64,000 nucleotides of DNA, from assembly GCA_050273025.1 (NCBI GenBank), contig CP158635.1, forward strand, positions 21,328,001-21,392,000. Reading direction: 5' to 3'. Below are positions 26,474-57,763 of the stretch, one piece after another. Source of the DNA: Cenococcum geophilum. Taxonomy: Eukaryota. The notes beneath the pieces were generated by a model. The model searched no databases and had not been told where the DNA came from. It worked only from the letters and a program-made list of their open reading frames with translations. Both the position numbers and the translations under genes were made by a program. Each line of letters begins with the position of its first letter. Position 1 is the first letter of the stretch.

Positions 26474-27095
26474 GGGGCCGTTCGGTTGCAACTTCAGAAT
26501 CAATCTAGAGGCTCCAGAATATAGCCGATCTGAAGCTTACATCTGATTCTGATGCAACTGAAGCTCCTTCGGATCGGCAACCGCGTCAAATTTGCAAGCT
26601 AAACCGTATACAGTAATTGAAATAAGGTTCTTAGCGTCAGATTGAAAAGGAGCTCCAAGCTCCTGATTCAGAAATCAGATCAATCTGGAGCTCTCGCGTA
26701 CGCGCCCGATTGATGACTTTTAGTGATACGGCGACTCTACCCACCTCGATTGCGATACTGCTATCGCAACTGCATCCCCTCTATGATGTCATAATCTTAA
26801 CTTTTGTGCGTAGAAAACGTCGATTGAGGATCTGGAGGAGTAGGAGACTCCATTACTACACCATATGCCAAAGTCGCGATAGAGGTGTAGCAGAGGCCGG
26901 GATCGCTTGGATCGCTCACCAAAATTTAATCACTCATTGTGCAACGTCAAATTCTGAGAGCCTCATCTGGAGCCTCACCGATCGATCAACTTAATTACAG
27001 ATTCAACTGAGTCATGGTAGTAGACGCCACTAATTACAAACCGGTTAACACTAAAAGGCGCACAGATCAAGAAGATTCTGCAACCGAACGGCCCC
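26474..27095. mobile_element. PIF/Harbinger-like MITE (622 bp)
   Basis: Perfect 17-bp TIR GGGGCCGTTCGGTTGCA / TGCAACCGAACGGCCCC with TTA target duplication (26471-26473, 27096-27098). No coding capacity recognised. Confidence 0.85.
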
Positions 27096-32290: not shown

Positions 32291-32526
32291 GAAGTCCTTG
32301 CGTATGGATTATTTACAAAGGGCTAGGGCTCTAAATTCTCACGTGTCAGTTATAATAGTGAATGAAGGGCGCGTTTGAAGGCCCTTACGGTTCGGCTACC
32401 GCAAGGAGCGTTGTCCACGATAGTCCAGGTCGACTTGGAAGTCAAGTAAAGCATATAAGCCAAACTCAAGGCTAAGAAAGGAGCAGCAACAAGGTCCAAG
32501 GCCGCTGAGAGCTAAACATTGCGCTA

Positions 32527-35020: not shown

Positions 35021-36989
35021 TAGGGGATCTACACCAATCTATATAGTTGTTGCACAAGAACAACCATTTCTGCAAGGGTCCGGAGAGCGGTAACGAGCTT
35101 ATTGGATCATCGGGACATGAAGTGACAAGCATCCATAAGCCCATGGAGTTTGCTCCGTCTGGATACCTTGAGAGTGAATATCAAATATGCCTAGACATGA
35201 TGGTCCCGATGCCAATCCTAAAATGGAGGGCAGTTGAGCCGCGTCTTGGCAGGGTCCCATCGTGCATCCCGCCGTGGGCTCCACTGAACTTGGGCATTTT
35301 TTCGAGCCGCTGGTGTCAGCCGCCCGAGCGCCACTCAGTCACTCCACCCAGAGACCCACTACTTGATTTTTAACTACCAATCCTTGGCTACTTGATCCGA
35401 CGACTGGTGAGAACAGACTCCGCCTTGGGCAATGTGCAACGTACGACCCTGCAGGTCAGATGAAGTCGCACACTTGCAACCGTCAGCAGAGCAAAACCAG
35501 TTTAGCTCAGTGCCGATAAACAAACTCCCCGAATATTGCCATCTACATACAGTTCCCTAACGCTCTCGAGTTCCATTCGACGACACTAAACTCGAGTAGA
35601 GAAGGTTGATTAAAGTATCATGGGTTCATTGCGAGACCCACCTTAAAGTCATAATCGCTTCCCTGATCACCTGCGAGGAAATACAGCAAATGCTGAGCGT
35701 TTCTTCTTGGCCTGTTCTCCAAACCTTGACATGTCGGCCACGCCGAGATGTTTCTACTCTGACTCGCCGGGAATGAATACCCCTGGATGCGGAGATTACT
35801 AGCGCGGTTGGAAGAAGGACAAAGCCTTGACCGCGCAAACTCAGGGCAGCGGGGGAGGTTCCTACCTAAACAAGCTATCGTTAGCTGGAGGCCTTTGGTG
35901 GTAACCCCAGACTTTCATGTGGAGTCTTGGCTAAGCTGATTTGGATGGCGAGGGAATGGGAAACCCAGCATCCACACTTCGAGCCCGCCAAAATCGCGGG
36001 CAACAGGACGTTGTAGTTTCCTCCTCTTGTCTGGTCTACGGGTGCGGCTCTTTTCGACATTCTAGACCCTCGAAGACCCTTCTAAATTAGAGCGCTCCGA
36101 TCTGCTGTGCGCGCGCCACCAATCAAGGCCAGTGGAACGCCCTAGCCATGTCTGGATTTTGGAAAGCTTGAATCCCCGGCCTCTCTCGATTTCCCTCGGT
36201 ATATCACACCTCCGGGCATAACATTCATTTCACCCTCGCCTGGGACTCGTACGGTGTTTTAAGTTCCTAAGCGTCCGCCCAGCTTCAGGTGTCCAGCAAA
36301 CCATTCCTTTGTCCTTCAAGCCTGAAAAACCTTCTACTAGTCTGGTTTTAGCCTTCCCGCTTTCCTATCTCCTACTAGCTCCACCTGACCAATGTGTTAT
36401 TGATGTGTGGCGTTGGGCTATCGTCTTTGCTGCCGTTAAACTCTCACAATCCTCCGAGACAATTCAAATATCTTCATATCCTGCAAAACCCCTTATTGGT
36501 GCCTGCGTGTTTAATCCCTACAGTATAGTGGATTGCAAAATCGGTTTCGCCCTCGAGCACACTCTTTGAATTTTGGCCCCACTCGATGACCTGGGAAGCG
36601 TCTTACTAAATACGGTAGAGCGTTGGCAGTGGTGCTAGGAGCCTCTTAATGTATAGTACATGCGACTCAGCAAGTAAAATATACTTCACGCAGACGTAGG
36701 TGACTTCTTAACTTATATAAGGCTCTATTAACTAACCTAACTTATAATCGTGGCAGAGCTTGACAAATAAGTAACAAGAACGTAATTTCTTTAATAAACA
36801 CGTTGTGGACGCGTGAACCCATTCAAGTATAATTACATTGGGAATTTGATAGAAAATTTCGAACTTAAATGTAATATGTTTCGGGATTTTCTAAGTCTGC
36901 AGAATGCCAAGATTGCGAGCCCGGAAGCTCCATCGCGAGCTCCACACGCGTGGCCACCGTCCACTAAACCTAAGAGGCAACCGGGTGCC

Positions 36990-37910
36990 TATCATACCGC
37001 CGAACCTTGCCGACTCGCAGCACGAAATAATTCGCGATATGATTCTTAGCAAGTTGCTCACCAGCGCGCGAATGGCGGACGCTGCGGGTTGCAGTATTCG
37101 ATCTATCAAAAGAATCCGCTCGAACCCCTGTTCCTTTGGCGCCACCAAAGCCCCTTCAAACGGCGTCGGACGGCGTCGATCTATCACACCTCCCATACTT
37201 GACACTTTGCATGAATACCTACTCGAAAAGCCTGAGCTATACCTTGGTGAGATGGCGGTCTTTTTGTGGGACGAATTTGAAGTCCTAGTTACTACCCCAA
37301 CTATAAGTAGAACTTTTCCTTCCATTCGTTGATCTAAGAAAACGATTCGTCGAAAAGCTAGGGAGCAAACCCTGATCTACAAGACCTCTACCTCTACAAT
37401 TTGTCAGTCTCTCGTTCCTACCACCTGGTTCGTGTGGACGAATCTGGGTACGACAAACGGATTAGATTCAGACGAACTGGATGGTCTCCTCTTGGTGACT
37501 CCCGTACAGATTGCTCGCTATCACCGTGAGCAACGATATCAAATTCTTCCCGCATATACTCAGGATGGGGTTATTCTGGCACGCGTATTTAGGGGTCCCA
37601 CAGATAGCGTCGTTTTCGAAAAGCTCATTGAGCAGCTCAGAACCGAAGTCTATCCTTGTAACGAACAATGCGTCGTTCTATTACACCAAACGAATTGAGC
37701 AAATGTGCTCTGATGCTAGTGTGAAATTGCTATATTGCCTCCTTACTCACCAGATCTGAATCTTATTGAAGAGTTTTTTGCAGAATTAAAAGGTTTCACC
37801 AAGAGGAATTGGTAAACTTACGAAGAAAACCCGGATCAGTGCTTTGACGCATTCCTCGAGTGGTGTGTTGATATGGTGGGCACAAGAAAACGGAGTGCGG
37901 AGGGTCATTT
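36990..37910 (+). mobile_element. Tc1/IS630-like (DDE_3) transposase remnant
   Basis: HTH region (MADAAGCSIRSIKRIR...GRRRSITP), VDESG.DKR, YQILPAYTQDG and PYSPDLNLIEEFFAELK, with frameshifts and stops. Termini not defined. Confidence 0.85.
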
Positions 37911-39715: not shown

Positions 39716-39986
39716 TCTAGCGACAAACGGCTATATTACGAGCCACCGATATAACAGCGATAGGAAAGAAGACGCCTTAGCATAGACTACTAGTGGCAGT
39801 AAACAAGGGCCTAGAGATAGAGTTGGTGGGTTAGACACTTCGCGAAGGACCTGCGTGAAGGTATCGTTGGATTGTTTTGACTTATCAACGCGTTGTTTTG
39901 ATTCTGTTGTTATGCACGGACCATCTGCCCGGCAGGATAAGGGATAGGCGAGTTTACGTCGGTGTGTACCAGTATGGAGATATTAT

Positions 39987-42231
39987 CCCTTGCATTGTTG
40001 ATGTGATATAAAATGTGGCCCGTGCGCGCGATCAAGAACATCGAAACTTCTTCGCGTCAAGTTGTAAATCTATAGCTTCATCAATCAAATACACTACAAT
40101 CATGGTGCGCAATTGTGAAAGTAATGATATAGACTTTGTTCCTTATACCCAACACCCAAAATACGCGTCTCAGAAGTCTCGAAACCCTCCTCCTGAGCCC
40201 TAGCCCTTACCTAATTTCGAACCTCTTCCTATTAAGAACAAAAATACCTATAGCAAGCCGAATCTTCCTTCCAATATTAATAATAGCGACCCTCTATAGC
40301 TATTTAAGCTATTCTTTATAGACGAAATTTTAGATTAACTTGTGGAGTATACAAATAGGAACGCGGAGCTCTACTAGACTCCGGAGGATAAGACTCCAAA
40401 GGGACGCCCGCGGAAGTGGAAGCCAATATTAAGGGCAGAGCTGTATGCATACTTAGCAGTACTAATTCATATAGGGCTATATATAGAAAGTAGCATTAAG
40501 GAGTATTGGCGTAAAGACTTTAGTTATAGCTTAATACACATTATTCGGAACTTTATTAGACTTAATAGATTTCACCAGATTAACCGCTACTTCTACTATA
40601 CCAAACTATAAGAAGATAATAACGAAGCTTTCCGGAATACTTTTAAAAGGATATGGGACCTTAGTAAGCACCTGCGCGTGCTCTATAGGAAGCTCTATAC
40701 CCCTAGTATATACCTTGCCGTCAATAAGATAATTAAACGGTTTACTAGCTAGGCTCCTAAAATCGTTAATATTCCTACTAAGCCGACGCCAGAGGGCTTC
40801 AAAATCTAGGTTTTAGGTAATTAAGGCTACGTTCTTAACTAGATATTCCACGCTAAAGGTAATAAGAAAGGACTATATAATCTGGATAAGGTGTACATAA
40901 AGGAGGAAGGCTTTTCCAAAACGCAGGTAGTAGTACTCGACTTGCTATTATAGAGAGACGACCTTACTAACAAGCCACTTTATCCACCAAATAAACACAT
41001 AGTGTGGCTTAATAACTTATTCATAAGCGTTAAGCTACTCTCTCGGCTTCGAGAGGTCGGAATTGGCGCGTTAGGGACTGTACGCACTACTAAAACAAAG
41101 CGGGAGGAGCAGGAGGAGGCTTCGGGCGAAGTTAAGGCCCAGCATAGAGCTCTAATTAAGTAAATTAGCTCCTCCCTTGCAGAGCTTAAATTGGTATTCA
41201 ACAACTAGATACTATAGGGTTCCTTATATAGAGAGCTTTCTAAAGACTCTACGGTTGCTTAATTTGCCTAGAAAGATTTAAATATAGTACTGTTTATAAG
41301 TACGGTCCTTAACGGTAAGTTTACCTAAACTTAAGATGAGGCTCTGCTACCAAAAATAGTATCTAACGTCATCTATCGCAGGATTTCAATCAATTAAATG
41401 GCCACGACAACGCCCTGCAAAGACCTCTACCGGTGCTGCAATAACTTAGAAGATCTTTAGCAGTAATATAGTTAAGGTATTATAGATTCCGCTATTTATT
41501 AACCTCTACAATTACTATATAAAAGGCGTTAATACTGCTAATTAGATAAGATCTTATTATAGCTCCCTCCAACATTACCGCAAGACTTAGAAGTCTCTAT
41601 TCTACTTCCTCCTTAATATAATTGTTACCAACTACTATAAGCTATCTTCCTACTCTACCAACGGCTGGCTAAAATAAAGTGGTTATAGGAAGTTCCTTAA
41701 ACAACTTATAAACTCTCTATTTAAGCTTTCTACCTAAATACCTTAAAGCAATTATGCGCGGGTCTCTATAGATTAAATATAGTGGTACCCGGCGATACAT
41801 CATAGATATAAGGCAGTTAAAATTAATATAAAGCCAATGACTTGCTCTGCATGCTTAGAGGCAGAAAGAAAGAGCTAAATTAAGAAACCTTTAAGTAGGA
41901 AGCCTCTCTGCGAGCTTTCAGTGAATACAACAAAGAGGTCGCGCGATAGTAAGGAGTTTAAGAGACCTCAAAGGTCACCAAGAATAACGTACGGGTGTAG
42001 ACTCTGTCGAATACCACTTTATAAAGTCGGCCCGTGTTAGCAGGAGCACGTAGATCGGCTCAACACCAAGGAATAAGTGTCTATATGTAATATACACCAA
42101 CATTTCAATATATTCGTAGCTTCAGTTAAGACTTTTAGTGATGTGGCAGAACGATTGACCGCCTAGGAATGCAGCTTATTGATTGGTGCGCACGGGCCAC
42201 AATTTATTGGACGTAAACAACAATGCAAGGG
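39987..42231 (+). mobile_element. piggyBac-like DNA transposon, RIP-degraded
   Basis: TIR CCCTTGCATTGTTG / CAACAATGCAAGGG plus subterminal IR TGTGGCCCGTGCGC. Transposase relics NIPTKPTPEGFKI, HIVWLNNLF, GIGALGTVR and YNYYIKGVN, with a C-terminal Cys-rich domain. ATG about 40102, stop about 42075. Confidence 0.9.
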
Positions 42232-42393
42232 ATACTTAGATTAGGGTATAATATTCATGTGGGCTATCATATTCGTTACGGAGGGTCTACATTCGCCAAA
42301 GTGATGATCTAGTGTTCACACGCTGCTTTCATATCCTCTTTCATGTCAATGCTGCACTTATAAGATCTACTTGGTGATAGTTAAAAGGACTTA

Positions 42394-42593
42394 GGGCCGT
42401 TCGGTTGCGAAAACGTCATATCTGAATTGAAAGTCCGGCAGAAAAAGCGCGTTCCTCCCTGATTTGTCATGCGTCTGTGGCTTTATAAATCGCACGGGTG
42501 TGTGCGATCTAAAGCCTTCAGATTAAGTTGAATTCTGAATCAGGAGCTTTGAGCTCCTTTTCAAAGGATAGAGAAAAGAAAGTGAGCCGCCCT
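42394..42593. mobile_element. Truncated member of the Harbinger-like MITE family
   Basis: Starts TTA|GGGCCGTTCGGTTGC. 42533-42564 is the near reverse complement of 26642-26673 (TTGAAAAGGAGCTCCAAGCTCCTGATTCAGAA). Right end degenerate. Confidence 0.65.
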
Positions 42594-42615
42594 AGGTGTT
42601 ATTATCTACTTCTGC

Positions 42616-43601
42616 CTAGCCCGTGGTGTTGTTAGAAAGCCTGTTAGGTGGTCGCAGATCCTTAAAGTCCATGTTCATAATAACTCCAGCGGCTGCAAAG
42701 CTCCTCTTGTCGGCGGTGACATCCGAAATATCCTGATTAATCTTCAACCCTTCACCTGTTATGTTAACGAATCCTGCCAGGGCCGTACTGTCATCTGTCG
42801 CCCTAACACCTTTGATCTTCTGTCCTGTACGTTCATAGACGGTCCTTGAGAGCGCCTCTTCACATATCCTCCGGAAACTATCATTAGAGGCTTTCTGTTT
42901 CTGTATTTCCTGGAGCAGTTCCTGTCTGCTCAGCTCTGCTTCTTCACTTGGTTGAGTGCTGCTGACTGGCAGCTGCTGTAGGCTGTTCTCTATAGCCGAT
43001 CGTTCGCTTTCCGCTCGGTGAATCTCTCGGTGAATGGCAGCTTCATTCTGCCGCAACATCATATCCTTCATCTCATTCATAAAATACCCCTGCTGGATCG
43101 ATGTAAGACTGCCATCGCGTCAGCCAGAGGCCTTCACATAAATACGTTTCGGTATTCTATAGGAGGACACACGTACATGTGGGCCGTTTGAAGCGTCACA
43201 TTCAGCGTACTCTTACAGTCGCTAAGTTGGGCCCTGAAAGTCTTTATCCTTTCCTGCCTAAAGAGACCCACTCTCCATCTATCCGCCCAGAATATCTTCT
43301 CTTCGGTCGAATGCTTCATCCAGCCACTGAGTAGCATTTGAAAGCCTGTACATGCTCTATTGCAGTTCTCCACAGCGGACTTGACCTCGGCGCTGAGGAC
43401 GATCTGTGAGCCATCGCTTTGAGACGCCGTATCCAATTTACGAAGAACGGGCTCGACTGCTCGTAGATCGAGGTTTATATTCCGAATAGTGTCAGGCGCA
43501 TCCTTAATGTTATCAATTGTGGCAGAAAGGAACTGGACACTCTGGACAGCCGCTCCGGCAATGCCCACAACTGAGGCAGCGGCACCAAGACCATCAGCCA
43601 T
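42616..43601 (-). CDS. HeLo-like (HELL/SesA-type) cell-death effector with C-terminal two-repeat HET-s-related amyloid motif, 305 aa
   Basis: Exons 43601-43177 and 43108-42616, intact frame. N-terminal hydrophobic helix MADGLGAAASVVGIAGAAV and IKDAP motif of fungal HeLo-like N-terminal domains. Tail pseudo-repeats QKIKGVRATDDSTALAGFV and QDISDVTADKRSFAAAGVI, then MDFKDL. Confidence 0.85.
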
Positions 43602-44008
43602 CGCCAAACAGATGTCTTGGACAGGAACGAAATCAGGTACTTCTCAAACACGGGAGAACTCTAGGGCAGCTGCAGAAATGGCCGATGCACACCTTTTTAA
43701 TATGTTGATTGGGTTTGCAGTAGGCAGGTATGGGGACGCAGCGGGACAGCTGAGTTTCAGCCGCAGTATGGTGGGCCATACGCAGTTGCACACGTAGACT
43801 AAGCCACAACCCGAACGTGAGGACGAGCTATCGATTATCTCATCTCTCTCACAGCAGATACGCCTTACAATAACGCCGGCCTTTGCGGACTCGATGCCAA
43901 ACCCGCAACAGCGATCTCCGAAAACCCTAAATACGATGATTCAGCGGAGCGCGTAACATATGTAGGCATCGATGTCGAGCGCTTCGCTGCCCCACCAACA
44001 ATATATTA

Positions 44009-47000
44009 ACGTAGCTGACCGGGAAGCGAGCCACCCCACGTAGCGAGCCACCAAGAATATGCCTTACCATTTTTTATTTCATAGCAAATTACACCAAAAC
44101 CAAAAAGTCTTAGCATATTACACAATGCTAAATTAATCTTTGCCCTCTTATAAAGCCGAAACCACCATATAAATTGTTATATAGGATGTCTCTTCTGGTG
44201 TTGAGCTATCGATTCGCAAGGCCTTAGGCGCCCATAGAGTACCTAGATCTACCGTTAAACAGTCTTATTAGCCGTCTCCCACGATACAAAGCTTACCCCA
44301 GCTTATTGCATCCTTTATAAGAAGAGTAAATTATTAGATGGATTAACGAATGCTAATCCTAGGGCCTTCCGTTAAAGGTTAATATGCTTTTAAAACTAGC
44401 TTATCCCCTTTTAGGAAAAGGCCGAACCGTAGGTAAGTATTAGGGGTAGAGATTTGTTCAACACCACAGTCTTAGTACTATATTAAGTCGTTAGCTTAAC
44501 TACTAGGGAGCTTAAAATAACGATCTGGCAGTTATATATAATTAGTATAGGTTCTTTTATGCCGTATATAAGCAATATTAAGTTAAGTATTTAAATTTTA
44601 TTTATAACTTTAATAAGAAAGGAGTAATACTAGGCCTTATAGCGGTGTCTTAAGTAATTATATCGGGTAAGGCGTATAGAGAGAGGTTAAAAAATTAAAA
44701 AGTTATATAGCTAGGCACTTATAGAATAGTATTTATAATTAAGACAATTTACCCTAATGGCTCTCTACTACCTAACTTTTTAATTTAAAAGGCGTAATAC
44801 TACTAGAAAGAATAGTATTAAATTAGTAAGTAAAATAGGGGCCTTTATAGATATATATAAGCTACCTCCCCTAGTAGGTAAATAGATAACTCTTTAGGCC
44901 TATATTATATTAAATATTATAATAAATATATAAGATATATTATAGAATATTTTAGCGGTAAAATATAGTAATATCGCCTACTTTTAATAGATAATTATTT
45001 AAGCTACTATAAGAGGCCAGCCTGACCAGAACGTATAATTATCTAATCAACAGTGTTACTAGTAAGTAGAAGGTAAGTTAAAGGTAAATAGAAGGTAAGT
45101 TAAAGGTAGAATAAGTTTCATATATTAAAGGACAAATGCTTCTAACCACTTCTATTTAGAGACTAATCGCTAGTTCTTCTCTAGAGGAGAACCAGCTCCC
45201 TATATAATCTTTCTAAAACGCTAGCAAAACCCTTTGCCCCTTATCTGTCTAACCGTGTCTTTTAGGACGTAGATGGAATATAGGTAAGACCTCCTTCTAG
45301 AATATAGATGAGACCTCCTTCTAGAATATAGATGAGACCTCCTTCTGTCTTATCTAATATATACCTTCTAGGGAATTCCGTTACAATTGCCTCCCCTTTA
45401 AGGGTCTTAGTCCTCTAAGACTTCGCCTCTACTAAGCTTTTATAAAGTTCCAGCTAAAACCACTAGGGAAATTCTTAGTAGAAAGGTACTCTATAATGCG
45501 GCTTATAGCTAGTTCTTCACTAGCATAGAACCTTACTTTGTCCTTAGTTCCTCTACTTTTTTCCTACCATAGTTCCCTATAATGCCTTTGTAATGGAACT
45601 AAAATAATAATAATAAAAATTAGATAGGATTTACCTTTCTTATTATAAGAGTTTATTATAAGTTAATCTAGAGGTTGTTCTATACAACGCGTCTATAAGC
45701 TACTATCCCTATTTACCTAAAATGGATTCTAATAATAACATCTTTATTTTAATTTTCTTTCAGTTTATAAGCTGTCGCCTCTTACGCGTCTTTTTATTAA
45801 TAACACTATTTATCTTATCTTTTAGCAGACTGTTTCCTCTATATCTCCGCTTTTAGCTTCCATATCTCTAGCTATTTTTTTTATAGCTGCTTTATTCTCT
45901 TCTTATAACACGTCTATAAGCAATAGGATTCCTACCTTATCTTCTTATAATAATACTAACTTCTTAGAGTATTCTTTTATAATGGCTTATGGTCCCTAAA
46001 CCGGCGGCAGTATTATTAATCTCCCAGTGACGCCCTAGACAGCGTCTATTACTCCTACAGCAGTTTCCCTAAAATACTATTGTCGCTGCGTTTATACTCT
46101 TACGTAAGATTCTTCCTACGTTTATAAGATACCTTACTCTAGTAAAAATAAATCTAAGTGCTCTTATTATTATAGTAGGAGAAAAACCTACGTTCTAGTA
46201 TTTCCCATTCTATCCTATTCTAGATTTCGCTAATTATACTAGATCTTTACTATCTATATATATAAGACTTATAGGCTCTAACGCGCTATCTAAGATTTCC
46301 GCCGATATTTTAATAGTAATAGGCGGGGATAGAAGGTGTCTTCCCTTACTTACAGACTCTTTAATTTTATAAGGGTTTCCATTACTATAGAGACGTAATG
46401 TTCTTAGATATATAGTGTCTAGAAGCGTATATACAAACAGCTTATCCTTATTAATAATAACATTTATACTCTTACGCGGGCTACTCTAGCCAGGTAAGTT
46501 TCTCTAGTAACTTACTTAGGAACTATACTAACTCCTTTAGCTAATATCTCTTTAATCTCTGCTTAGACGCCAATTTAGAACCTAGGGATACTAAGGATAG
46601 CAACAAAGGTTAAGATAAACGTTTTCTTTGCTAGTTTCCCGCCTATGCTAGTCCTTCTAGTACCTATTATTCTAAGAAGAATATTAATAGAAGTGCTAAT
46701 GCTTCTAGGGATAAAGGAGCTAATAATACTATTAATAATAACATTAAGATAGAAGAGGAGGCTCCTGTTATTGCTGTTAGTATTTAAGTTATTACCTAGC
46801 TCTTTCCTTTTTATAAAATAGCTTTATATAGTGCCTCTCGGGTGCCTCTAGGATGCCCTATTATTGGGAATTAACTTTATACTTTAGGGATACCTTTATT
46901 CTAAGCTTCGGTAACAATCTATATAAACGTAGTGCACTATTATAATCCCCATATATAATAAACGGGTAGTATTCCTATAGGTGCCTTATAATTCCTTAAA

Positions 47001-50000
47001 ATTTCTAATTCTTTATAGGCTATCCTTTTGCTCCTCTTTATACCATTAACTCTACTACATATCTCCGGTGCTAGGCTAGATACTCTTCTTTTATCCCTAG
47101 GGGATCTTGCTAAATCCCTAAGGCCACTTCTTATAGTGCTACTACTCCTTCTTATACAGTATCTTCTTTAAATAGTATCCCTAGTAGTTCTTCTATGGAT
47201 TTCTATAGGCTTCCTCTTATAGAATTTTAGGATCCCTATTATAATAGCGAAACATTTCCGTTCTTAATGCCTATACTTAATCCTATAGTTTTAATTTATA
47301 GGGTCTTCCCTATTACTTTACCTATAGTATATCCGGAACCATTTCTAAGTCTTTACCTTTAGTTCTTAGGAAGGTTTTAATTACGGTGTTATATCCCAGC
47401 TAAAGGTACTCCTTAGGTTCCCAACTATTATACGCCTAAAAGTATCCTTCCTAATAAACTAAAAATTCGCGCTTCTTCTAGCGCCATCTTTAGTCTAGTA
47501 TATCTTCTACATTCTATTCTAGTTCCCTATTAATTTTGCTAGGTAGGGGCGGTTCTACACTATCTCTTCTCCAGTATAGCTTTAGTAAGGAAATATAAAA
47601 TATAGGATATATTAGATAAGATTTCGGTAATTCCAATTTATAGGCTTAGTTTCCTTTAGTTTTCTTAACTATCTTAAAGGGTCCGAGCTACTAGTAATCC
47701 AGCTTCTTCTTAATGCGTTTTATTTAGATATTTTTTATAAATAGTAAGACTTCGTCTCCTATCTCAAATTCTTTCGGCATATATTTTTCGTTATAGTACC
47801 TTTTTTATACAGCCTAGGCGTCTAGCAAGTGCTTTTTAAGTTCCTCTCTACGAATTCTTATTTGCTTAATTCTTTTAGACGCCGCTAGTGCCTCTCTTTT
47901 AGAAACAATATCCTTAACGTTCTAGGGGTTATTTGCTTTTACCCCAAACAATGCTTTATAAGGGGTCATTTTTATACTATTATAGATGCTTATATTATAT
48001 ATATGCTACGCTAGAGCTAATTATAATGTCTAATTATCCTGTTAATAATTAATATAGCAGTGGAGGTAGTGTTCCAATAACGCATTTAGACGCTCTATTT
48101 ACCCATCTATTTGCGGGTAAAAGGTAATACTTATCCTTTGCCGTATTTTTAATAAGAGACAGAATAAAGACCAAAATGCACTATTAAATACGGTGCCTCT
48201 GTTAGATATAATTCCCCTTAGCGTACTAAATAAGAGCTACTATTCTAAAAACAGGTCTGCCAGTTCTGCTACTATAATTATTATTATAACAGCAAAGTAT
48301 CCTAAAAACTTTATATACCTATTAACGATTACTAGAATAGCGTTAGTAACCTCTCCAGTTCTTATCTTAGTAGGGGGTAAGCCTATAATAAAATCCATTA
48401 TTAATTCTAATATAGGTCCCTACGGAATAGGAAGTACTAATAACTCGCCGTATAGGTAATGCCTGGATATCTATATCCTTTAGCACGTATTACACCTTAA
48501 TATATAGTCCTTAACCTCTTTAGATATTCCGTCCTAAAAGTATTTCCTTTAAACGGCCTTAAGGGTTCTATTGGCACCGTAGTAACCCCTAAAAGGGTTA
48601 TTATAAAAAACTTTTAGAATTTTGTCTTAAATTACTTGGTCCTTTAGGATATATATAGCACCCTTAAAGCGCAATAAACCCTTTTAGTCTTACTACTATA
48701 GCTTCTTAGTAACTCTGGCTAAGTTGGTCTCTACTATATTTTTCTACCTCTCCCTAGAGGCGAAGGCGTCCCTTTATTAAGCTTAAAGAAGAAGATTTAG
48801 AAAGGTTTTATATAGATTACTTACTTTTATTTTACCTGCCGCTATTATAAACTTAAGGCGTAGCATAAGACGTTTTAAACCATTAGTGCTAGCAGATTCT
48901 CCTACTATTATGCAGTGTGCCACGCTATAGATAGGTATCTCGCTTATCCCCCTTAGATCTAAGAACTCGTAGCTAATGCGCCGTCAAGTCAAAGGTGCCG
49001 CGACACCTCTAGCACATCCTATAGAATTCTCGCTAATTCTAGGGTACGCTAACTTTATAACGTCTGCTTGGTCTATAACCTAGTCTATAACTATATCCTA
49101 CAGCTCTACAATTATATCGCTTCGTAGCTGCATTATTAGGACCTCTGCCCTATTATAAAATTCTATAGTTCTAGGAAAAGAGTCTTCTTTCTTTCTAAGC
49201 AAATTTTGCAATATAGGGATTATTTCCCCTATACTATCCTAGGTCCTCCCTATCTTGTAATCTAGACGTCTTAATAACCTATTAGTAGGATTTGTCTTTC
49301 CTAGGCGGTACGTAATCTTAAAATTGTACTATAATAGTGCCTCTACCTACCTAGCTTATTAACCGCTTAACACCTTTATAGTTATAAAGTATTCTAGGTT
49401 ATTATAGTTTATAAGGACTTTAATGGGATAATTGCTTCCTATATAATAATGTCGCCAGTGCTTTATTACTGCGATTATTATAAGTAGCTTCTAGTCGTGC
49501 GTTATATAACGCTGCTCTATAGGGGTCATTTTCCTTAACTAAAACGCTATAGAATGCTATTTTCCGTCTTTTAATTAAGATATAATTGCCCCTAGGGTAA
49601 AGCCGGATATATCCGTTTTAAGGTATATATATAGCTCCTAGTAGAAGTGTATTAGGATAGGCGCCGACATAAATAAATCCTTTAACCAGTCTATAGCTTA
49701 CTTAGTAGCTTTCCTAAATATAAAGGGTCCTAACTTCCTGCCATTCTTAGATCCTTTTAGTAGATTGGTAATTGGGAGTATTACTTATAAGTAGTAAATA
49801 ATAAACGTTTGGTAGAAGTTTACCGTGCCTAAGAAAACCTATACTTCTCTAAATATTATAGGGTAGGGCTATTCCCTAATAGCGTCCACCCGACTTTTCT
49901 CTATTAACACTCCGTTAACGCTAATGATAAAGCCTAAAAAATTAATGCTAGTAGTATAGAACGTGCACTTTTTTAGGTTTATATAGAGCTTATATTCCCG

Positions 50001-53000
50001 CAGTCTTTCTAGTACTATTCGCACGTAGTGCATATATACTTCGTAGTTATTAGAGTAGACTATAATGTTATTAAGGTAGACTATATATATTATATCTAAT
50101 AGGCCTAACAATACCTTATTAATATAGGCCTAAAATATCGCTAGTGCGTTAGTAAGCCTAAATAGCATTACTAGGTACTTAAAGTGGCCGTACTATATTT
50201 AGAATACCGTTTTCCACTTATTGCCGGCTTTAATTTGGATTTAATAGTATATATCTTTTAGATCCAATTTCGTGAATATCTTTACGCCCAACAGCCTATT
50301 AATAAGCTCCCCTATTAAGGGTAACAGGTAGCGATTTTTTATAGTAATCTTATTTAGCGCCTAATAGTTAATATAAAGGCAAAGGGTCCTATCCTTCTTA
50401 GGTATAAATATAATTGGCGCCCCTACTAGGCTTATAGAGGGCCAAATCCATCCTCTTTAAAGATTGTCTATTATATATTAACGCAGTACCGCTAGCTTAT
50501 TTTCTAATAGGTTATATAGCGGTCTAAAAGGAGGTTGTTTATCCCCTATATTTATCTTATACTTAACTAATATAGGGTTAGGTAAGGTTTATATAGCCTC
50601 TTTACTAGAAATATCCTCTAAGTCCGTATATTCCTATAGAATCTTTAGTTCCTTAACTACGTATAGCCGGATATCCAAAAATAAATATTCTATGTCCCCG
50701 TTCTTAGTGTTAAGAGTGGCATATATAGTATATGCCCACCCTTCTTCTTGCATATAGTTTAAGAAAGTCTCTTAATCTTTAACTATAATACGCGGTTAAG
50801 ACTTCTAATGTTAATACGAGGCTAAAGGCCAATTAATGTCCGGATTAACTTGGTAAAGCTATAGGTATCCCAAAACAAGGTTGTACCCCTTAATTTCTGT
50901 AGTATAGAAGCGCATCTCCTACGTGTCCTATAGACTATCGCGGTCCTAGCTGGCTATAGAAAAAGCCTATTTCTTATAGTATGGAATCTAGTGGCCTTTA
51001 ATGCTTTAAATGGTGCGCACCTGTAAGCCACTAAGGTCCAAATCTAATTCTTTTACTAGTAATTAAGAAATGAACCCTATACTCGCGCCGCTATCTATAA
51101 GGCAGTCTTACGTCACCTATTTATTATTAACTTAAATAGAGACAGGAATAACCATGCGGTAATTTACTCCCTCCTTCTCTTACTAGCCTAGTGTAAGGGA
51201 GTAAAGATCTACTAGGCTGTCTCTTTTCCTAATTAGGCCGACTCTTGCTTCTTCTACTAGTAGAAGCGGCTTATATAGCCCTTCTTGCCGCAGTTATAAT
51301 AGGTGCGTGTCTCCTAGTTTCCCTTTTACAGATTAGGTCTCTGCCTATTGTTATTTTAGGGTTAACTAGCGTTACTCTAGGGCTGCGAGGCCTGCTTACG
51401 TTATCCTTCTATAGAGTAGTTAGGTCGGAATCTGCCCCTATTATTAAAGCTAGGTCTAGTCCTACGCTCTTTATTATTAGCGTCTTATTCCTTTCACTTA
51501 CCTAAATAGTCTCTTTTAGCACTCTTAATCCGAGTAGCTTTAAAGATAAGCTTTTCTTAAGAGGTAGGAATTTCGCCCTTCTCTTATATGGCCTGTTAAA
51601 TCTTAGGTTATAGCTTAGTGAGTAGCTAGTGAAGTTATATAGCGTTATCCCACAGATCTAAATAGGGTATATTATTTTCTAGTTCTTCTAAGTAGTTTAT
51701 AAACTAGACCATAGTCTAACCATCCCGCTATTTAGCGTCGTGGTATTACTGGTTATAGTCTATCCCTTAATTAGTAGGGTTTTAGACCTAATCGACTAAC
51801 CAGGTCCTAAGTTTGCTAAATTTAAAGGGTATAGTAAGTTTCTTCTTATAGCGTGTTTATAAACTCTTAACGGTGCCACGTAGGAAGGTAGAAGTAATTA
51901 GTATCTAATTATACTCATTAGAGTAACGTTTTGGATCTAGCCGAAACTTAGTTTCGCATTATTAAATAAAATAATTATAGTTCCGAAGACTATTACTATA
52001 GTACTTATTAGGTTCCTTTATGCGGAATTTAGGTTTTTCTAACGTTATAGTATAGTATGGCGTTACCCCTTTAAGTCCGCTTCGTGTCTAGGGTGTCTAT
52101 ACTTCCCCTAATTATCCTTATAATTGTTCTTAGTAGTCTTAATATACTTATCTTAATTATATCTCTAACTCCTTTGTTTTTTATAGGGTCTTATATAGCG
52201 ACCGCTTTAATAACTCCCTAGTAATAATTATTTCTAAGGGTCTTATAAGGTTAGACGGACTAGCCGTAGCTTCTTTATAGGAAGAGGGAATGCGCTCCTC
52301 TAGGGAGACTCTTTAAGCCTCTTGCGGTAAGGGCGTTGCTTTATAGGGTACAGGAGTATAGTTTGTTATTATTAATTAATAGCCGTATGTTCCTAACGGA
52401 TTATAAGCGATTAGAATTATAAGAGGCCAGCCTAATTAGAACGTATAATTATCTAATTAACAGTATTACTAGTAAGTAGAAGGTAAGTCAAAGGTAAATA
52501 GAAGGTAAGTTAAAGGTAGAATAAGTTTTATATATTAAAGGATAAATGCTTCTAACCACTTCTATTTAGAGACTAATCGCTAGTTCTTCTCTAGAGGAGA
52601 ACTAGCTCCCTATATAATCTTTCTAAGACGCTAGTAAAACCCTTTACCCCTTATTTGTCTAACTGTGTCTTCTGGGACGTAAATAGAACATAGGTGAGAC
52701 CTCCTTTTGGAATATAGATAAGACCTCCTTCTGGAACATAGATGAGACCTCCTTCTGGAACATAGATGAGACCTCCTTCTGTCTCATCTGATATGTACCT
52801 TCTGGGGAATTCCGTTACAGCTACCTTCCTTAGCAATTCGTTGAGTATACGCTCGCGCGTAAGATTATCTTAGTAGCTTTATTACCTTATTTAACCTATA
52901 AGCTTTAACTACTAGATATAGGTTATTTTAGGCTACTCTTTTACTACTACTGGAAGTAAGTAGATGGCTTCTATTAATATAGCTACTTAGGCGTTAATAA

Positions 53001-53591
53001 GGAACATTTTTAAAGCTTTACCTAAAGGCGTATATGTAGGTATTTACTTTTAATACAATCTATAGCACCTAGAAAGCTATAGGCCTTCTACCTTATAATT
53101 CTACTGCTTTCTTAAAGACTCCTACCTATATAGAGGTAAGCCTAATTCTAATTATACTTACCGGGGTTTAGAACGGCTCTATTTAATATAGCGACGTTAA
53201 GCTTTATAGAATTATTAGTGTCTTTAAAGTACGTAAAGTAGTAGGTATATTTAATTCCTCTATATCCTAGCCATTATAAGGCTCTCTTATATATTTAGGT
53301 GTAACCTGTAGCTTACAAATGAGTGGATTAATGGGTTATTGATCCGGAAAGGGACGTTGTAGGAATATAGTGGTCGCCTGTGCAATTAGTAGGCGCGCGG
53401 GTCTATATCACCACCATAACGTAGTTAAATTAATTTAAGCAATATTGCGATTGAAAGAGTAATATAAAAGCTTCAATTTGGCCTATTTAATATATATATC
53501 AGCTCGTTGTTTTGATTTTATTATAAATTAATCAAATATCACCTGTATGTGGCTCGCTACGTGGGGTGGCTCGCTTCCCGGTCAGCTACGT
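44009..53591 (+). mobile_element. Fot1/pogo DNA transposon (about 1.77 kb net) carrying a nested Gypsy element
   Basis: TIR ACGTAGCTGACCGGGAAGCGAGCCACCCCACGTAGCGAGCCAC at both ends with TA duplication (44007-8, 53592-3). RIPped transposase (YNFNKKG; LLLIDNYLSY, the DGHSSH equivalent) is split by the LTR element. Confidence 0.92.
45008..52819 (-). mobile_element. Ty3/Gypsy chromovirus-type LTR retrotransposon, full length, heavily RIPped
   Basis: LTRs 45008-45385 and 52418-52819 with 5-bp TSD GCTAC. Minus-strand relics in Gypsy order: gag Zn knuckle (about 51270), protease LIDSGA (about 51090), RT YLNN for YLDD (about 50070), RNase H, integrase, chromodomain (about 47410-47530). Confidence 0.95.
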
Positions 53592-55194
53592 TAGCGGTAC
53601 GTCCGCAGCGGACGGCGCACAGGCATTTGCAGGAATCAACCTCGGAAATATATACTATGGGGACACTGCGGCTCGCAAATGTTAGTACATTGAGCTCCTT
53701 GATCCAGTCATCGGGTCTGTCGAGCTAATACTACATTAAGCAACCCCTCTGCAGGCCCCATCCGAACCATTCTCTACCGTCCCCTTTCGACGAGATCCCG
53801 ACTTTGTCGACCGTGACAATGTTCTGATTCAGATTGAACAACGCTGCTCTCAACCGGCTGGTCGTGCTGCGCTTGTCGGCCTCGGCGGTGTAGGGTAAGC
53901 AATCGTAAAACCGTCCGGCGTTTGCCCGGCTAACTTCCATAGGAAATCTCAACTTGCTATCGAGTACTCCTACCGCCTTCGAGGCCGATCACCGCAGACA
54001 TGGGTATTCTGGGTGCACACAAGCAACGCGGCGAGGTTCGAAGCGGCATACAAGAATATCGCGGACAGGCTTCAGCTACCTGGAAGGGATGACACTACGG
54101 TCAATGTGCTCCAACTGGTGTGCAACTGGCTCCGCAGTGAGGGTGATAGACAATGGCTCATTATCCTCGATAACGCCGATAATGAGAGCTTTTTCAATAT
54201 ACAAAGGCATGAGGTGCAAGGTGCAGCGTCTGGGAATACTCATGGTAGGCTGACGCTCGCGGATTTCCTTCCACAGAGCAAGAATGGATCAATCCTTATC
54301 ACATCTAGAAACATGGATGCCGCTGTAAAACTCACCGGCAGTTACAAGGACATTATTCAGATCCAAAAGATGAATCGGGACGAAGGCGTTGAGCTACTGC
54401 GGAAGAAGCTCCGGTGTCCGTTAGATGAACAGGCAATAGAGCTGTTAGCTGCACTTGACTATATACCGTTGGCAATAACTCAAGCCGCGGCCTTTATAAA
54501 CAAGCGCTGGCCTCGAACGACAGTGGCAAGCTATGCGCAAGAGTTACGTACGAACAACAAGAAAAGGGCAAAGCTCCTAAGTCAAGCCGTGGCGGATTTG
54601 CGCCGAGACGAAGAGGCATCTAACTCTATCCTTGCTACATGGCAAATATCCTTTGAGCATATCCGCGAAGAGAAACCGTCTGCTGCCAACCTACTTTCGT
54701 TGATGAGCTTCTTTAACCCGCAGGGGATTCCCGAGTTTCTACTCCGAGGTTACTCGGGAAGCAAACCGAATACTAAAGACGACGATGATGGGGAAGACGG
54801 GTTCGAAGATGACTTAGATTTATTAAGGAGCTACTTATTAGTAATAACAAACGGAAATGGGGACGTCTTTGAGATGCACCGGCTGGTCCAGTTTGCAACA
54901 AGAACGTGGCTCCGATCGTTTGGCGGAGAAGATAGGTGGCGGCGAAAGTTCCTTGCTATCCTATCCAAGGAGTTTCCTACCGGAGAGTTCAGTAACTGGT
55001 CACAGTGCCAGCTGCTTCTTCCACATATTGAGCCCATGGTAGACGAGGAGCCCGTAGACACCGAAGAAGCAAAATACTGGGCGCAAGTTCTGTACAATGC
55101 AGCTTGGTACACGTGGAGTTAAGGACTCTATATTCAGGCAGAAGAGATGATCCAGGGTTCAATATCGGCAAGAACGAGAGTGTTAGGCGTAGAC

Positions 55195-55725
55195 TATATA
55201 GAGACGCTAGCAAGCGTTAGCATTCTGGCGTTAGTGCTGCAATACCAGGGCAAGTACGACGAGGCCGAGCAGATGAACCGACGAGCGCTGGAAAGGAGGG
55301 AGAAGGCGCTGGGGGAAGAGCATCCTTCCACGCTGACGAGCGTTAGCAACCTGGCGTTAGTGCTGCAATACCAGGGCAAGTATGACGAGGCCGAGCAGAT
55401 GAACCGACGAGCGCTGGAAAGGAGGGAGAAGGCGCTGGGGGAAGAGCATCGTTCTACTCTAACGAGCGTCAGCAACCTGGCGGTAGTGCTGCAATACCAG
55501 GGCAAGTACGACGAGGCCGAGCAGATGAACCGACGAGCGCTGGAAAGGAACGAGAAGGCGCTGGGGGAAGAGCATCCTGACACGCTGATGAGCGTCAGCA
55601 ACCTGGCGTTAGTGCTGAAATACCAGGGCAAGTACGACGAGGCCGAGCAGATGAACCGACGAGCGCTAGAAGGGAGGGAGAAGGCGCTAGGGGAAGAGCA
55701 TCCTGACACGCTAATGAGCGTATAT
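55195..55725 (+). repeat. Near-identical 126-bp (42-aa) TPR repeats, about 4 units
   Basis: Repeating unit TLTSVSNLALVLQYQGKYDEAEQMNRRALERREKALGEEHP, visible at both DNA and protein level. Confidence 0.95.
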
Positions 55726-56340
55726 TGCCTTGCATACCTCTACCATCAGCAGAGGCGGTACGATGCTGCGTCCGTGATGTACCAAAGGGCGTGCGATGGG
55801 TATAAGAGAAGGCTTGGCCTAAATCACCCTACCACGGTAGCATGCTGCGACCATTTCGCAAAGATGGTACAAGAGATGCATAAACTTAGACCTCACTTAA
55901 AGGGAAACAGGTGCCGCCCCTCTAAGCTCTTAAAATACCTTCGCAAAGTTATCCCTTAGTAAATAACTCCAATAACTCTCTTTACACAGTATATTAATAT
56001 TTCTTTTATAATCTCTATTACATAGAGGGGTCCGGGGCCGACTGAATATAAGTAGCTAGAATGCTTTTATTAGCGTCTCGCATTTTCTAGAAAGCTCTGT
56101 GGCTTGGTAAAAAGAACTATCTCTAGCGCTTTAGGTGGCGAAAGGTAGGGTTGCATGCTGGGACCGGTAGCTTAGCACAGCCACAAGCCGTTTCTCTTTG
56201 GTTGTAGTTACTTATTGTATCCCCTAACACGTCAGTTTACGTCTATCTGTTATCGATAAGGACTAACCAATTAAATCAACCGAATTGAATCGTCGTGATT
56301 TTGGTGTTCCGCGCACGGACCAAATTCTAGATAGACGCTG

Positions 56341-56440
56341 ACGTGTTTAAGGGATAGTTATGACGGTTCGGAACATCAAAACTACGCACAGACGAAATTT
56401 GGTAGGAACCGTCATAACCCTATCGCTCATATATATACGA
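56341..56440. mobile_element. About 100-bp pogo-related miniature inverted-repeat relic
   Basis: IR GTTATGACGGTTC / GAACCGTCATAAC. Starts ACGT and resembles the TIR/subterminal sequence of the element at 32527 (GTTATAACGGTTAGGAACACCAAAA). Confidence 0.45.
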
Positions 56441-57763
56441 AACCGATTTTGCAATCCACTATACTGGTAATGCATGCCCTCTTCAATGCCACTAACTTCC
56501 AGATTCATCAGTAAGCTAGCCTTGTTAGGCACTCTTCTGAAAACTTCCGTAAATGGTCACGACGATTGGCTATCTGTAGAAACGAGTTTCCCTAAGTTAA
56601 CTTTTCATACTACCTCATGGATTCCTTAACGTAACAGCCTAATTATTCAACGTCGACGCTACTGTATAACGCCTCGTGGCAATCGACGATACATACGCTA
56701 CCAACTCATGCTCTAAGTCCATCCTACTGGGACGCACGGGATCCCCGTGGCCGGGTTTCTAGTCTTGATTGAGCAGGTGTTCGCAAGACAAGATGTCGAA
56801 AGTATTGCTATTAGGCTTCAAGTGCCTGCGAAGTATTTCCTTACGTCTATAATATTAGGATTCTATCCTTTTAACAAAGCAAGGTTCACATTCTTGAGCA
56901 CTTAGTCGCGCACGATGCCGCATTAATCGAGTGAGTGGTAAGTAGCGAATCCGAATTTCGGTTTTTCAAATGGATACTTGCAGATTATGAGAAACGACCC
57001 GAGGGTATAAGTCACTCTGTAGTCCTTTTCACTTCCTCATTTTCAAGATATTGTATAGAGTGGGTTCGCTCTACATACGTCTCTTTTCTTGATCCTATTG
57101 CATGAACAACTTCGATCAACATTCTAGAACCTCTGCCGAAACTCCAATCTGTCTTCTGGCACCTTCTCATGGTGGTAGGGTAAACCCAGTTTAAATTATT
57201 GTTAGCTATCCTGTCAAAGCAGCAGGCGATGTCTAGAACACAAATCATTAAATCCTTTGCCGATAGCGAGGTTGACACATCTTGTTTTTATAATTCCATT
57301 CAAACCTTGTCCTACAGAGATCCCATAATGCTAAAGTGGAAAATTATGCTTCTCGAAGCCATTCCTTTTCGACCTTCCTCCTATTTCTCTTCATCAAGCC
57401 CCAATGCTTGAAGGTGCTCCTGTCTATCCCCACCAAAGACTAATTTTGCAAATTTTCGTAATTCATCACTTTATAGTTTCCGAGACGGCAACTCTGTATA
57501 TAACTATATTAGCTTCAGTCGGCAGGGGTATATTTCTTAGACTTCGAGCCTAAATTTGCTAGTAGTAAGACGCAGAAGTACTCCAGAGCTATGCTACACA
57601 TGCTACACCTCCGGTAACGCCAGAGATCAATCCGTCCCATCATATCTGCCTCCGAAAATAGAACTCCGTCCATGCAGCTAGGTAAGTACGCAGCGACGCC
57701 GAATCAAAACCCGCTCTTGCAGATTCCCACGTTTGGCCTTCTTTACGTCTACCCGCTCATCAC

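What the first reader, a model, noticed from the sequence alone, without database searches (positions are those of the whole stretch)
43972..53680. Transposon inserted inside the NLR amyloid motif
Seen: the pogo element sits at the TA spanning codons 12-13 (ATT A|GC), between QYI and SGTSAADG. Removing it and one TA restores a continuous first exon ending at a canonical intron (53681). Inference: the insertion cut the signalling module off the receptor. It could be a loss-of-function allele that segregates in the population or was favoured because it removes an auto-toxic or incompatibility trigger.
Basis: partly seen in the sequence, partly recalled or inferred. Interest (0 to 1): 0.7.

Follow-up and report, generated by a model that had tools for sequence, protein, structure and literature searches.

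The report
Transposon-killed fungal immune receptor allele
A dead transposon sits inside the short amyloid tag of a fungal immune-receptor gene and knocks it out, while related fungal DNA still has the uninterrupted gene; this repeats a pattern already known from the mould Podospora, with the added point that the partner cell-death gene next door also carries a damaging-looking change.

Summary
Observation confirmed. A 1,766-bp pogo/Fot1-type element (43-bp perfect TIRs, TA duplication), later invaded by a 7.8-kb Ty3/Gypsy element and RIP-mutated, splits the HRAM2-type r0 motif of an r0-NB-ARC-TPR NLR between motif positions 5 and 6. Two orthologous metagenome loci (L011, L012) have the predicted empty site, and RNA contigs splice both introns as modelled. 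The NLR faces an HeLo-like effector with two matching repeats: an NWD2/HET-S-type pair in Cenococcum geophilum.

(1) The NLR also has a CAA>TAA stop that removes all TPRs. (2) The effector carries G115R at a glycine invariant in 34 of 34 distant homologs and 12 of 12 conspecific alleles. (3) The genome holds three other NLRs with similar r0 motifs, two with open frames, and two broken effectors.

Best reading: a loss-of-function haplotype in a birth-and-death gene family, with the orphaned effector starting to decay. This parallels nwd2 killed by a transposon in het-s strains. No evidence that the loss was selected, and landing in r0 is compatible with chance. New member of a known kind; interest 0.35.

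The parts
42616..43108 (-). Effector exon 2 (long helices, then HRAM repeats r1 and r2, stop at 42618-42616)
   Evidence: intron spliced in X7, X19, X21
42766..42828 (-). HRAM repeat r1 (aa 236-256; Q3, G19)
   Evidence: two strands in the model of allele P0122
42679..42741 (-). HRAM repeat r2 (aa 265-285; Q3, G19)
   Evidence: two strands in the model of allele P0122
43177..43601 (-). Effector exon 1, HeLo-like domain (PF17111)
   Evidence: E 7.6e-23, 81.4 bits, cut-off 27.2
43257..43259 (-). Effector codon 115, AGG (Arg), where relatives have Gly; CpA>TpA type change on the + strand
   Evidence: G in 34 of 34 distant homologs and 12 of 12 cluster alleles covering it
43972..44008 (+). NLR exon 1, 5' piece (ATG, 12 codons plus 1 base; r0 positions 1-5 start at 43993); ends in the TA target
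44009..45007 (+). pogo/Fot1-type element, left part (TIR 44009-44051), RIP-mutated, many stops; ends in the first copy of the 5-bp duplication (45003-45007)
45008..52819 (-). Nested Ty3/Gypsy chromovirus-type LTR element (LTRs 45008-45385 and 52418-52819; protease, RT, RNase H, integrase zinc finger, SH3, chromo; many stops)
52820..53591 (+). Second copy of the 5-bp duplication (52820-52824) and right part of the pogo (TIR 53549-53591)
53592..53593 (.). Duplicated TA target
53594..53680 (+). NLR exon 1, 3' piece (rest of r0 to 53640), donor at 53681
53741..53894 (+). NLR exon 2, to the Walker A motif
53943..55959 (+). NLR exon 3: NB-ARC-type NTPase, DUF7779, TPR array (126-nt units)
55120..55122 (+). 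Premature TAA (codon 486), CAA in L011; removes all TPRs

Best explanation
The locus is a divergent NLR/effector pair of the NWD2/HET-S type. In intact alleles the TPR-sensor NLR is expected to oligomerise on ligand, stack its r0 into a beta-solenoid and template r1/r2 of the HeLo-like effector, which then kills the cell (inferred from family knowledge, not shown here). In this haplotype a pogo-type element inserted at a TA inside r0 and abolished the receptor (insertion shown; loss of protein inferred). A Gypsy element then inserted into the pogo at this site, and RIP acted in place (shown by the LTR differences). With the receptor gone, selection on the pair relaxed: the NLR gained a CAA>TAA stop and the effector gained G115R and A16G, the first two plausibly by RIP leakage (order and cause inferred). 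It is one null haplotype in a family under birth-and-death turnover, and the hit in r0 is incidental.
For: Empty sites in 2 of 2 orthologous loci. TA at 16 of 16 TIR ends found in L001-L010. No LTR element at this position in 10 of 10 other copies examined. LTR pair: 26 substitutions, all transitions, 19 at CpA/TpG. Both the stop and G115R are CpA>TpA changes. Window-only changes near the insert are CpA>TpA in 7 of 38 cases against 5 of 93 for L011 plus L012, Fisher p=0.039. Gln at the stop site in 6 of 6 other alleles covering it; Gly115 in 12 of 12. Different nulls in L011 and P0210. Two further broken effector paralogs in G000. Precedent: nwd2 inactivated by a transposon in het-s strains (PMC3321046, PMC4344463, PMC13449251).
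Against: The effector frame is open, r1/r2 are unchanged from other alleles and it is transcribed and spliced in X7 and X19. G115R is untested, and two other full-length alleles (P0122, P0123) also deviate at one or two conserved columns beyond the species-wide ones. The RIP-leak signal is weak: near versus far in the window lineage is 7 of 38 against 2 of 25, p=0.30, and L011/L012 are not true outgroups. The order of the three lesions is not shown. Two or three other r0-bearing NLRs with open frames could keep the effector under selection.
Confidence: 0.55

Rival explanations
1. Rewiring in trans: the effector still works and serves unlinked NLRs with similar r0 motifs (two NACHT-WD40, one NACHT-ankyrin), so the insertion removed one sensor of several, not the pathway.
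For: A search of G000 with the intact exon found 4 r0 matches, 3 elsewhere. L022 gives an open 1,240-aa model and L037 a 1,198-aa model with GT-AG introns; L036 gives 965 aa only with an alternative donor. Their r0 share 12, 11 and 14 of 21 residues with this r0. The effectors beside L022 and L036 are broken, and the window's was the only full-length one among 3 matches. Many-NLR-to-one-effector wiring is proposed in PMC9815663 (passages).
Against: The one full-length effector carries R at an otherwise invariant Gly. The three other r0 motifs have Leu at position 3, not the Gln that marks HRAM2. Expression of those NLRs was not tested. Orphan open NLRs are also expected during decay.
Confidence: 0.22
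2. het-s-like allele: G115R and/or A16G disable killing but leave a prion-competent r1/r2, so this haplotype could carry a harmless HRAM2 prion that kills on fusion with G115 strains, as [Het-s] does with HET-S.
For: Same haplotype logic as het-s: transposon-killed NLR, point change in the killing domain, unchanged repeats, continued expression. A16G lies in the predicted N-terminal helix.
Against: R115 and G16 were seen in 0 of 12 other alleles, unlike the balanced, trans-species het-s polymorphism. Orphan decay gives the same picture. No prion or incompatibility data.
Confidence: 0.08
3. Selected suppressor: the stop came first and made a sensor-less, auto-active r0-NB-ARC protein; the insertion in r0 and G115R were then favoured because they silence it.
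For: [quoted passage not shown] The stop removes exactly the sensor array. The insertion lies in r0, which holds 4 of 134 TA sites.
Against: No allele with the stop but without the insertion was found: 6 of 6 other alleles have Gln. The stop is of the RIP type and 1.5 kb from a RIP-mutated insert, so insertion first explains it more simply. A lethal intermediate would be needed.
Confidence: 0.08
4. The orphaned 3' part is a transposon-driven or cryptically started transcript with a function of its own (dominant-negative fragment or regulatory RNA).
For: Spliced contigs of exons 2-3 occur in X7 (word depth 210, effector 743) and X19 (40, effector 119) with the same number of differences from L011 as the window allele, 52 of 52.
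Against: The first in-frame Met lies far past Walker A and the frame stops before the TPRs. About half of the X7 signal retains intron 1. Contigs cannot show start or strand.
Confidence: 0.05

Closest known systems
nwd2 pseudogene linked to het-s in Podospora anserina (PMC3321046 and PMC4344463 passages; PMC13449251 section 8)
   Same: Divergent adjacent NLR and HeLo-family effector sharing an HET-s-related motif; NLR inactivated by a transposon; linked point change in the effector's killing domain; order of events unresolved.
   Different: There an ~0.5-kb repa/yeti LTR scar in an r0-NACHT-WD40 gene with HRAM1 and a true HeLo domain, and a balanced trans-species polymorphism with proven function. 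Here a pogo plus nested Gypsy inside r0 of an NB-ARC-TPR gene with HRAM2 and a HeLo-like (PF17111) domain, seen in one haplotype, untested.
HRAM2 NLR/HeLo-like pairs (Daskalov 2015, PMC4518210, parts 1-3 of 5 and part 1 of 5 of supplement 2 read)
   Same: Two 21-aa repeats at the effector C-terminus, one at the NLR N-terminus, Q3, G19, hydrophobic core positions; near-identical style to data-set rows such as EWZ36199.
   Different: No R/K at position 15 (also absent in those rows); HRAM2 has no experimental test in the 3 papers listed for it (listing only for one of them).
Strain-dependent NLR pseudogenisation by stops, frameshifts, TE insertions and RIP in Podospora (PMC13449251 passages)
   Same: NLRs intact in some strains and broken in others; RIP-type changes; association with TEs.
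   Different: Different fungal class; here the lesions can be tied to a paired effector and to unlinked r0-bearing NLRs.
Fot1/pogo DNA transposons of ascomycetes (family traits recalled, not from a call)
   Same: About 1.8 kb, ~43-bp TIRs, TA duplication, DDE_1 domain in a sister copy.
   Different: All examined copies are stop-ridden; subfamilies 94-97% alike suggest spread after RIP damage.

Membership tests
HRAM NLR/effector amyloid signalling pair | Effector under 310 aa with HeLo, HeLo-like or sesA domain | tested here: met
   305 aa; PF17111 above cut-off
HRAM NLR/effector amyloid signalling pair | Two 21-aa repeats at the effector C-terminus, loop 6-18 aa, G19, hydrophobic 5/8/10/16/18 | tested here: met
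   r1 aa 236-256, r2 aa 265-285, 8-aa loop; I,V,A,A,A and G19 in both (definition)
HRAM NLR/effector amyloid signalling pair | Adjacent NLR with a single similar motif at its N-terminus | tested here: met
   r0 aa 8-28 in L011, 8 of 21 identical to r1, 7 of 21 to r2; T at position 8. Split by the insertion in the window
HRAM2 subfamily | Q at position 3, no Q at 16 or 18 | tested here: met
   r0, r1, r2; definition. No formal clustering with the published set was run
HRAM (all groups) | Preference for R/K at position 15 | tested here: not met
   T, F and Q; a stated preference only, and the closest published rows also have T and F
HRAM NLR/effector amyloid signalling pair | Beta-solenoid amyloid fold and templated cell death | not testable with these tools
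   Model of allele P0122 (mean pLDDT 63) places two strands in each repeat; not a test of amyloid or function
HeLo/MLKL-type four-helix bundle | Structural match to a solved HeLo or MLKL domain | tested here: inconclusive
   Residues 1-152 match generic four-helix bundles, best Z 15.0, rmsd 2.6, 144 aligned
pogo/Fot1 transposon | TIRs and TA target duplication | tested here: met
pogo/Fot1 transposon | DDE_1 transposase domain | tested here: inconclusive
   No Pfam hit in 6 frames of this copy's halves; DDE_1 E 2.3e-7 in sister copy L007, 84-86% identical
Ty3/Gypsy chromovirus | LTRs, 5-bp duplication, PR-RT-RH-INT order with chromodomain | tested here: met
het-s-type allorecognition allele | Balanced polymorphism of killing-dead and killing-competent alleles | tested here: inconclusive
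   R115 in 0 of 12 other alleles from mixed, unplanned samples
het-s-type allorecognition allele | Prion propagation and incompatibility on fusion | not testable with these tools
   needs expression and confrontation assays

The most novel reading that the evidence does not exclude
This haplotype is an independent replay of het-s evolution in a mycorrhizal Dothideomycete: a transposon kills the NLR at its r0, the HeLo-like effector loses killing through G115R/A16G but keeps expressed, intact HRAM2 repeats, giving a natural HRAM2 prion allele that would be incompatible with G115 strains and could be seeded in trans by three unlinked r0-bearing NLRs.
Probability: 0.08. Interest if true: 0.75.

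Novelty: new member of a known kind. Interest (0 to 1): 0.35.

Why it matters
As an NLR knocked out by a transposon it is ordinary for a genome rich in repeats, and the same event is published for nwd2. Its value is as a clean natural allele series for the untested HRAM2 class: intact and null NLR alleles, G115 and R115 effectors, and three unlinked r0 variants. These make two open questions testable: whether one effector serves several unlinked NLRs, and whether het-s-like prion alleles arise more than once. For het-s the order of NLR loss and effector mutation is stated as unresolved (PMC3321046); here the RIP-type lesions give a handle on order.

Tried and rejected
Assembly artefact: rejected; perfect TIRs and TA duplication, a DNA contig set (X4, possibly the source, so not independent) that breaks at the site, and a TIR loose end in RNA set X7. 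Composite element moving as a unit: not seen; 0 of 10 other copies examined have the LTR element at this point, out of 44 matches listed from 40 of 153 candidates scored. Rescue by an ATG in the right TIR: the frame into exon 1 is open for 20 codons after a stop and has no Met. Rescue by splicing out the insertion: no contig listed bridges the site in X7 or X19, but the tables were cut, so not excluded. X21 as a third empty-site allele: its reads cover the site on the NLR strand, but 19 have another 5' end and 11 another exon 2, so they come from a paralog; inconclusive. Transcript start of the orphaned part: depth arithmetic shows no laid contig upstream of L011:5591 in X19, but records are filtered; not determined. 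Structural search did not list a HeLo or MLKL chain among the top 50; no conclusion drawn. No complex prediction was run, as amyloid stacking is outside that tool's tested range. Cassette idea from earlier findings: 42330-42600 matched only 26642-26690 elsewhere in the window, with no partner beyond the NLR. Literature: searches listed no paper on this locus; 'NLR' occurs 0 times in PMC12910237. Most subscription papers are not in the library, and the supplements of PMC9815663, PMC12910237 and PMC9293092, which may list this pair or insertion, were not read.
Full report
Observation. The window has perfect inverted arms at 44007-44051 and 53549-53593, TA included, with TA at 44007-8 and 53592-3. 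The 9,583-bp insert is AT-rich with a composite RIP index of 0.6-1.5 in all 500-bp windows from 44001 to 53500, against negative values in the effector gene and promoter. It has two layers. The outer element is 1,766 bp; a search of G000 listed 44 matches from 40 of 153 candidates scored, all 16 TIR ends found in the 10 fetched loci follow a TA, and sister copy L007 has a DDE_1 domain. The inner element, 45008-52819 on the minus strand, has two LTRs, a 5-bp duplication and Ty3/Gypsy domains with a chromodomain. None of 10 other pogo copies examined has it at this point, so it most likely arrived here after the pogo. Its LTRs differ by 26 transitions, 19 at CpA/TpG, so RIP acted in place.

Empty-site alleles. 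A scan of metagenome contigs with effector exon 1 returned 8 loci; two are orthologous (98% protein identity, syntenic flanks). Paralogous exons in L013 and L017 are also continuous. Reads laid on L011 show intron 1 spliced as modelled in X19 and intron 2 in X7, X19 and X21. The gene model is therefore shown, not only inferred. Named members of the effector's 90% cluster are Cenococcum geophilum, and the nearest named relative of a neighbouring gene is from Glonium stellatum.

What the gene pair is. The interrupted gene is an r0-NB-ARC-TPR NLR (TPR_12 E 7.9e-75, DUF7779 E 4e-10, NB-ARC weak at E 0.0036 on exon 3 alone). Divergent from it, 370 bp away, is a 305-aa protein with a HeLo-like domain (PF17111) and two C-terminal 21-residue repeats. 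r0 (from L011), r1 and r2 all have Q3 and G19 and a mostly hydrophobic core pattern. By the definitions in PMC4518210 (parts 1-3 of 5 read; passages; supplement 2 part 1 of 5) this is HRAM2; the position-15 R/K preference is not met, as in the closest published rows. The insertion falls after the first base of r0 position 6. In NWD2 the N-terminal motif is necessary for signalling (PMC4344463 passages), so loss of function is a safe inference.

(1) TAA at 55120-55122 ends the frame at residue 485, before every TPR. L011 has CAA and 6 of 6 other alleles covering the site have Gln (7 examined, the seventh ends at the stop and matches the window allele). (2) The effector has Arg115 where 34 of 34 distant homologs and 12 of 12 cluster alleles covering it have Gly, and Gly16 where those 12 have Ala or Thr (15 alleles examined, 3 do not cover these sites; 15 of 29 members of the main cluster were listed and one named record was left out as possibly not independent; some of the 12 may be the L011 and L012 products). 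Residue 115 sits just before helix 116-147 in a moderate-confidence model of allele P0122. Both the stop and G115R are CpA>TpA changes. Window-only changes near the insert are of this type in 7 of 38 cases against 5 of 93 in L011 plus L012 (p=0.039), but near versus far within the window lineage is not significant (p=0.30). RIP leakage is plausible, not shown. (3) Other alleles have other nulls: a 1-bp deletion at Walker A in L011 (reads in X7, X19 and X21 lack it) and a frameshift at the TPR start in P0210. L012 has three changes in r0 and its contig ends within exon 3.

Genome context. G000 holds three more NLRs with similar r0 motifs (4 matches in all): NACHT-WD40 at L022 (open 1,240-aa model), NACHT-WD40 at L037 (open 1,198-aa model) and NACHT-ankyrin at L036 (usual donor reads AT; 965 aa with an alternative donor). 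They share 11-14 of 21 residues with this r0 but have Leu at position 3. The effectors beside L022 and L036 are broken, and the window's effector was the only full-length one among 3 matches (such searches give lower bounds). So the only full-length effector found sits beside the dead receptor, and the open receptors have no intact effector beside them.

Transcription. RNA contig sets X7 and X19 differ from L011 at 52 places over exon 3, the same count as the window allele including the stop site, so they most likely carry this haplotype and are not independent alleles. They show the effector spliced and the orphaned NLR part transcribed and spliced. One X7 contig joins the left TIR to the 5' exon piece, promoter and spliced effector. 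Start and strand cannot be read from contigs. The orphaned RNA cannot encode a working NTPase: the first in-frame Met is far past Walker A.

Mechanism and rivals. Best supported (0.55): insertion first, then nested insertion and RIP, then relaxed selection on both genes. Trans wiring to the unlinked NLRs (0.22) is suggested by the reciprocal pattern and was proposed in general in PMC9815663 (passages). An het-s-like prion allele (0.08) fits the haplotype but R115 was seen in 0 of 12 other alleles. A selected suppressor of a sensor-less auto-active NLR (0.08) has a mechanistic precedent but no intermediate allele. r0 holds 4 of 134 TA sites, about 3%, but any coding hit would kill the gene, so position is no evidence of selection.

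Comparison and verdict. In P. anserina, nwd2 is inactivated by a repa/yeti insertion only in het-s haplotypes, whose effector has a killing-dead point change, and the order is unresolved (PMC3321046 passages; PMC13449251 passages and section 8). Strain-dependent NLR pseudogenes from stops, frameshifts and TE insertions are described there too. For C. geophilum, extensive RIP and strain-specific TE insertions are published (PMC12910237 passages), and NACHT/HET genes figure among selection candidates (PMC9293092 passages). Seven searches listed nothing on this locus; unread supplements could. The feature is real and well resolved, a new member of a known kind. Interest 0.35, mainly for the allele series and the G115R parallel with het-s.

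Noticed in passing
window 32524-35023: A second TIR element with 46-nt arms, TA-flanked and RIP-like, whose first bases resemble the pogo's end; absent from both L011 and L012.
   Followed up: partly
window ~39986-42232: A 2.2-kb RIP-like stretch with 33-nt inverted arms, absent from L012 and replaced by about 80 bp in L011; ends 380 bp past the effector's stop.
   Followed up: partly
window 42390-42480: A short motif past the effector's 3' end draws very high depth from many other contigs and pairs with 2593-2642 and 27071-27094 as inverted copies; perhaps the dispersed GC-rich motif of earlier findings, identity not checked.
   Followed up: partly
window 53570-53600: Read in the NLR frame, the right TIR end supplies Tyr-Val before the rest of r0, close to the original Tyr-Ile, but no ATG precedes it.
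   Followed up: yes
L003, L006, L009, L010; L024: Stop-ridden pogo copies form subfamilies 96-97% alike, and L024 is 94% alike to this copy, which suggests mobilisation of already damaged copies in trans.
   Followed up: partly
L022:2343-6159 (G000:C4): Reciprocal cluster: open r0-NACHT-WD40 NLR next to a frameshifted effector that has lost its N-terminus.
   Followed up: partly
L036/L023 (G000:C4): r0-NACHT-ankyrin NLR whose usual donor reads AT, about 9 kb from a stop-ridden effector remnant.
   Followed up: partly
L017:1-6140: Two tandem r0-NB-ARC-TPR genes, one with stops, beside a truncated effector, in a related metagenome contig.
   Followed up: no
window 36895-37698: Degraded Tc1/mariner-like frames (HTH_32, weak DDE_3) without a clear RIP signal.
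   Followed up: no
window 57018-57423 and 56297-56554: Blocks not aligned to L011, so further small indels lie downstream of the NLR; 56438-56466 is a perfect inverted copy of 36521-36549.
   Followed up: no
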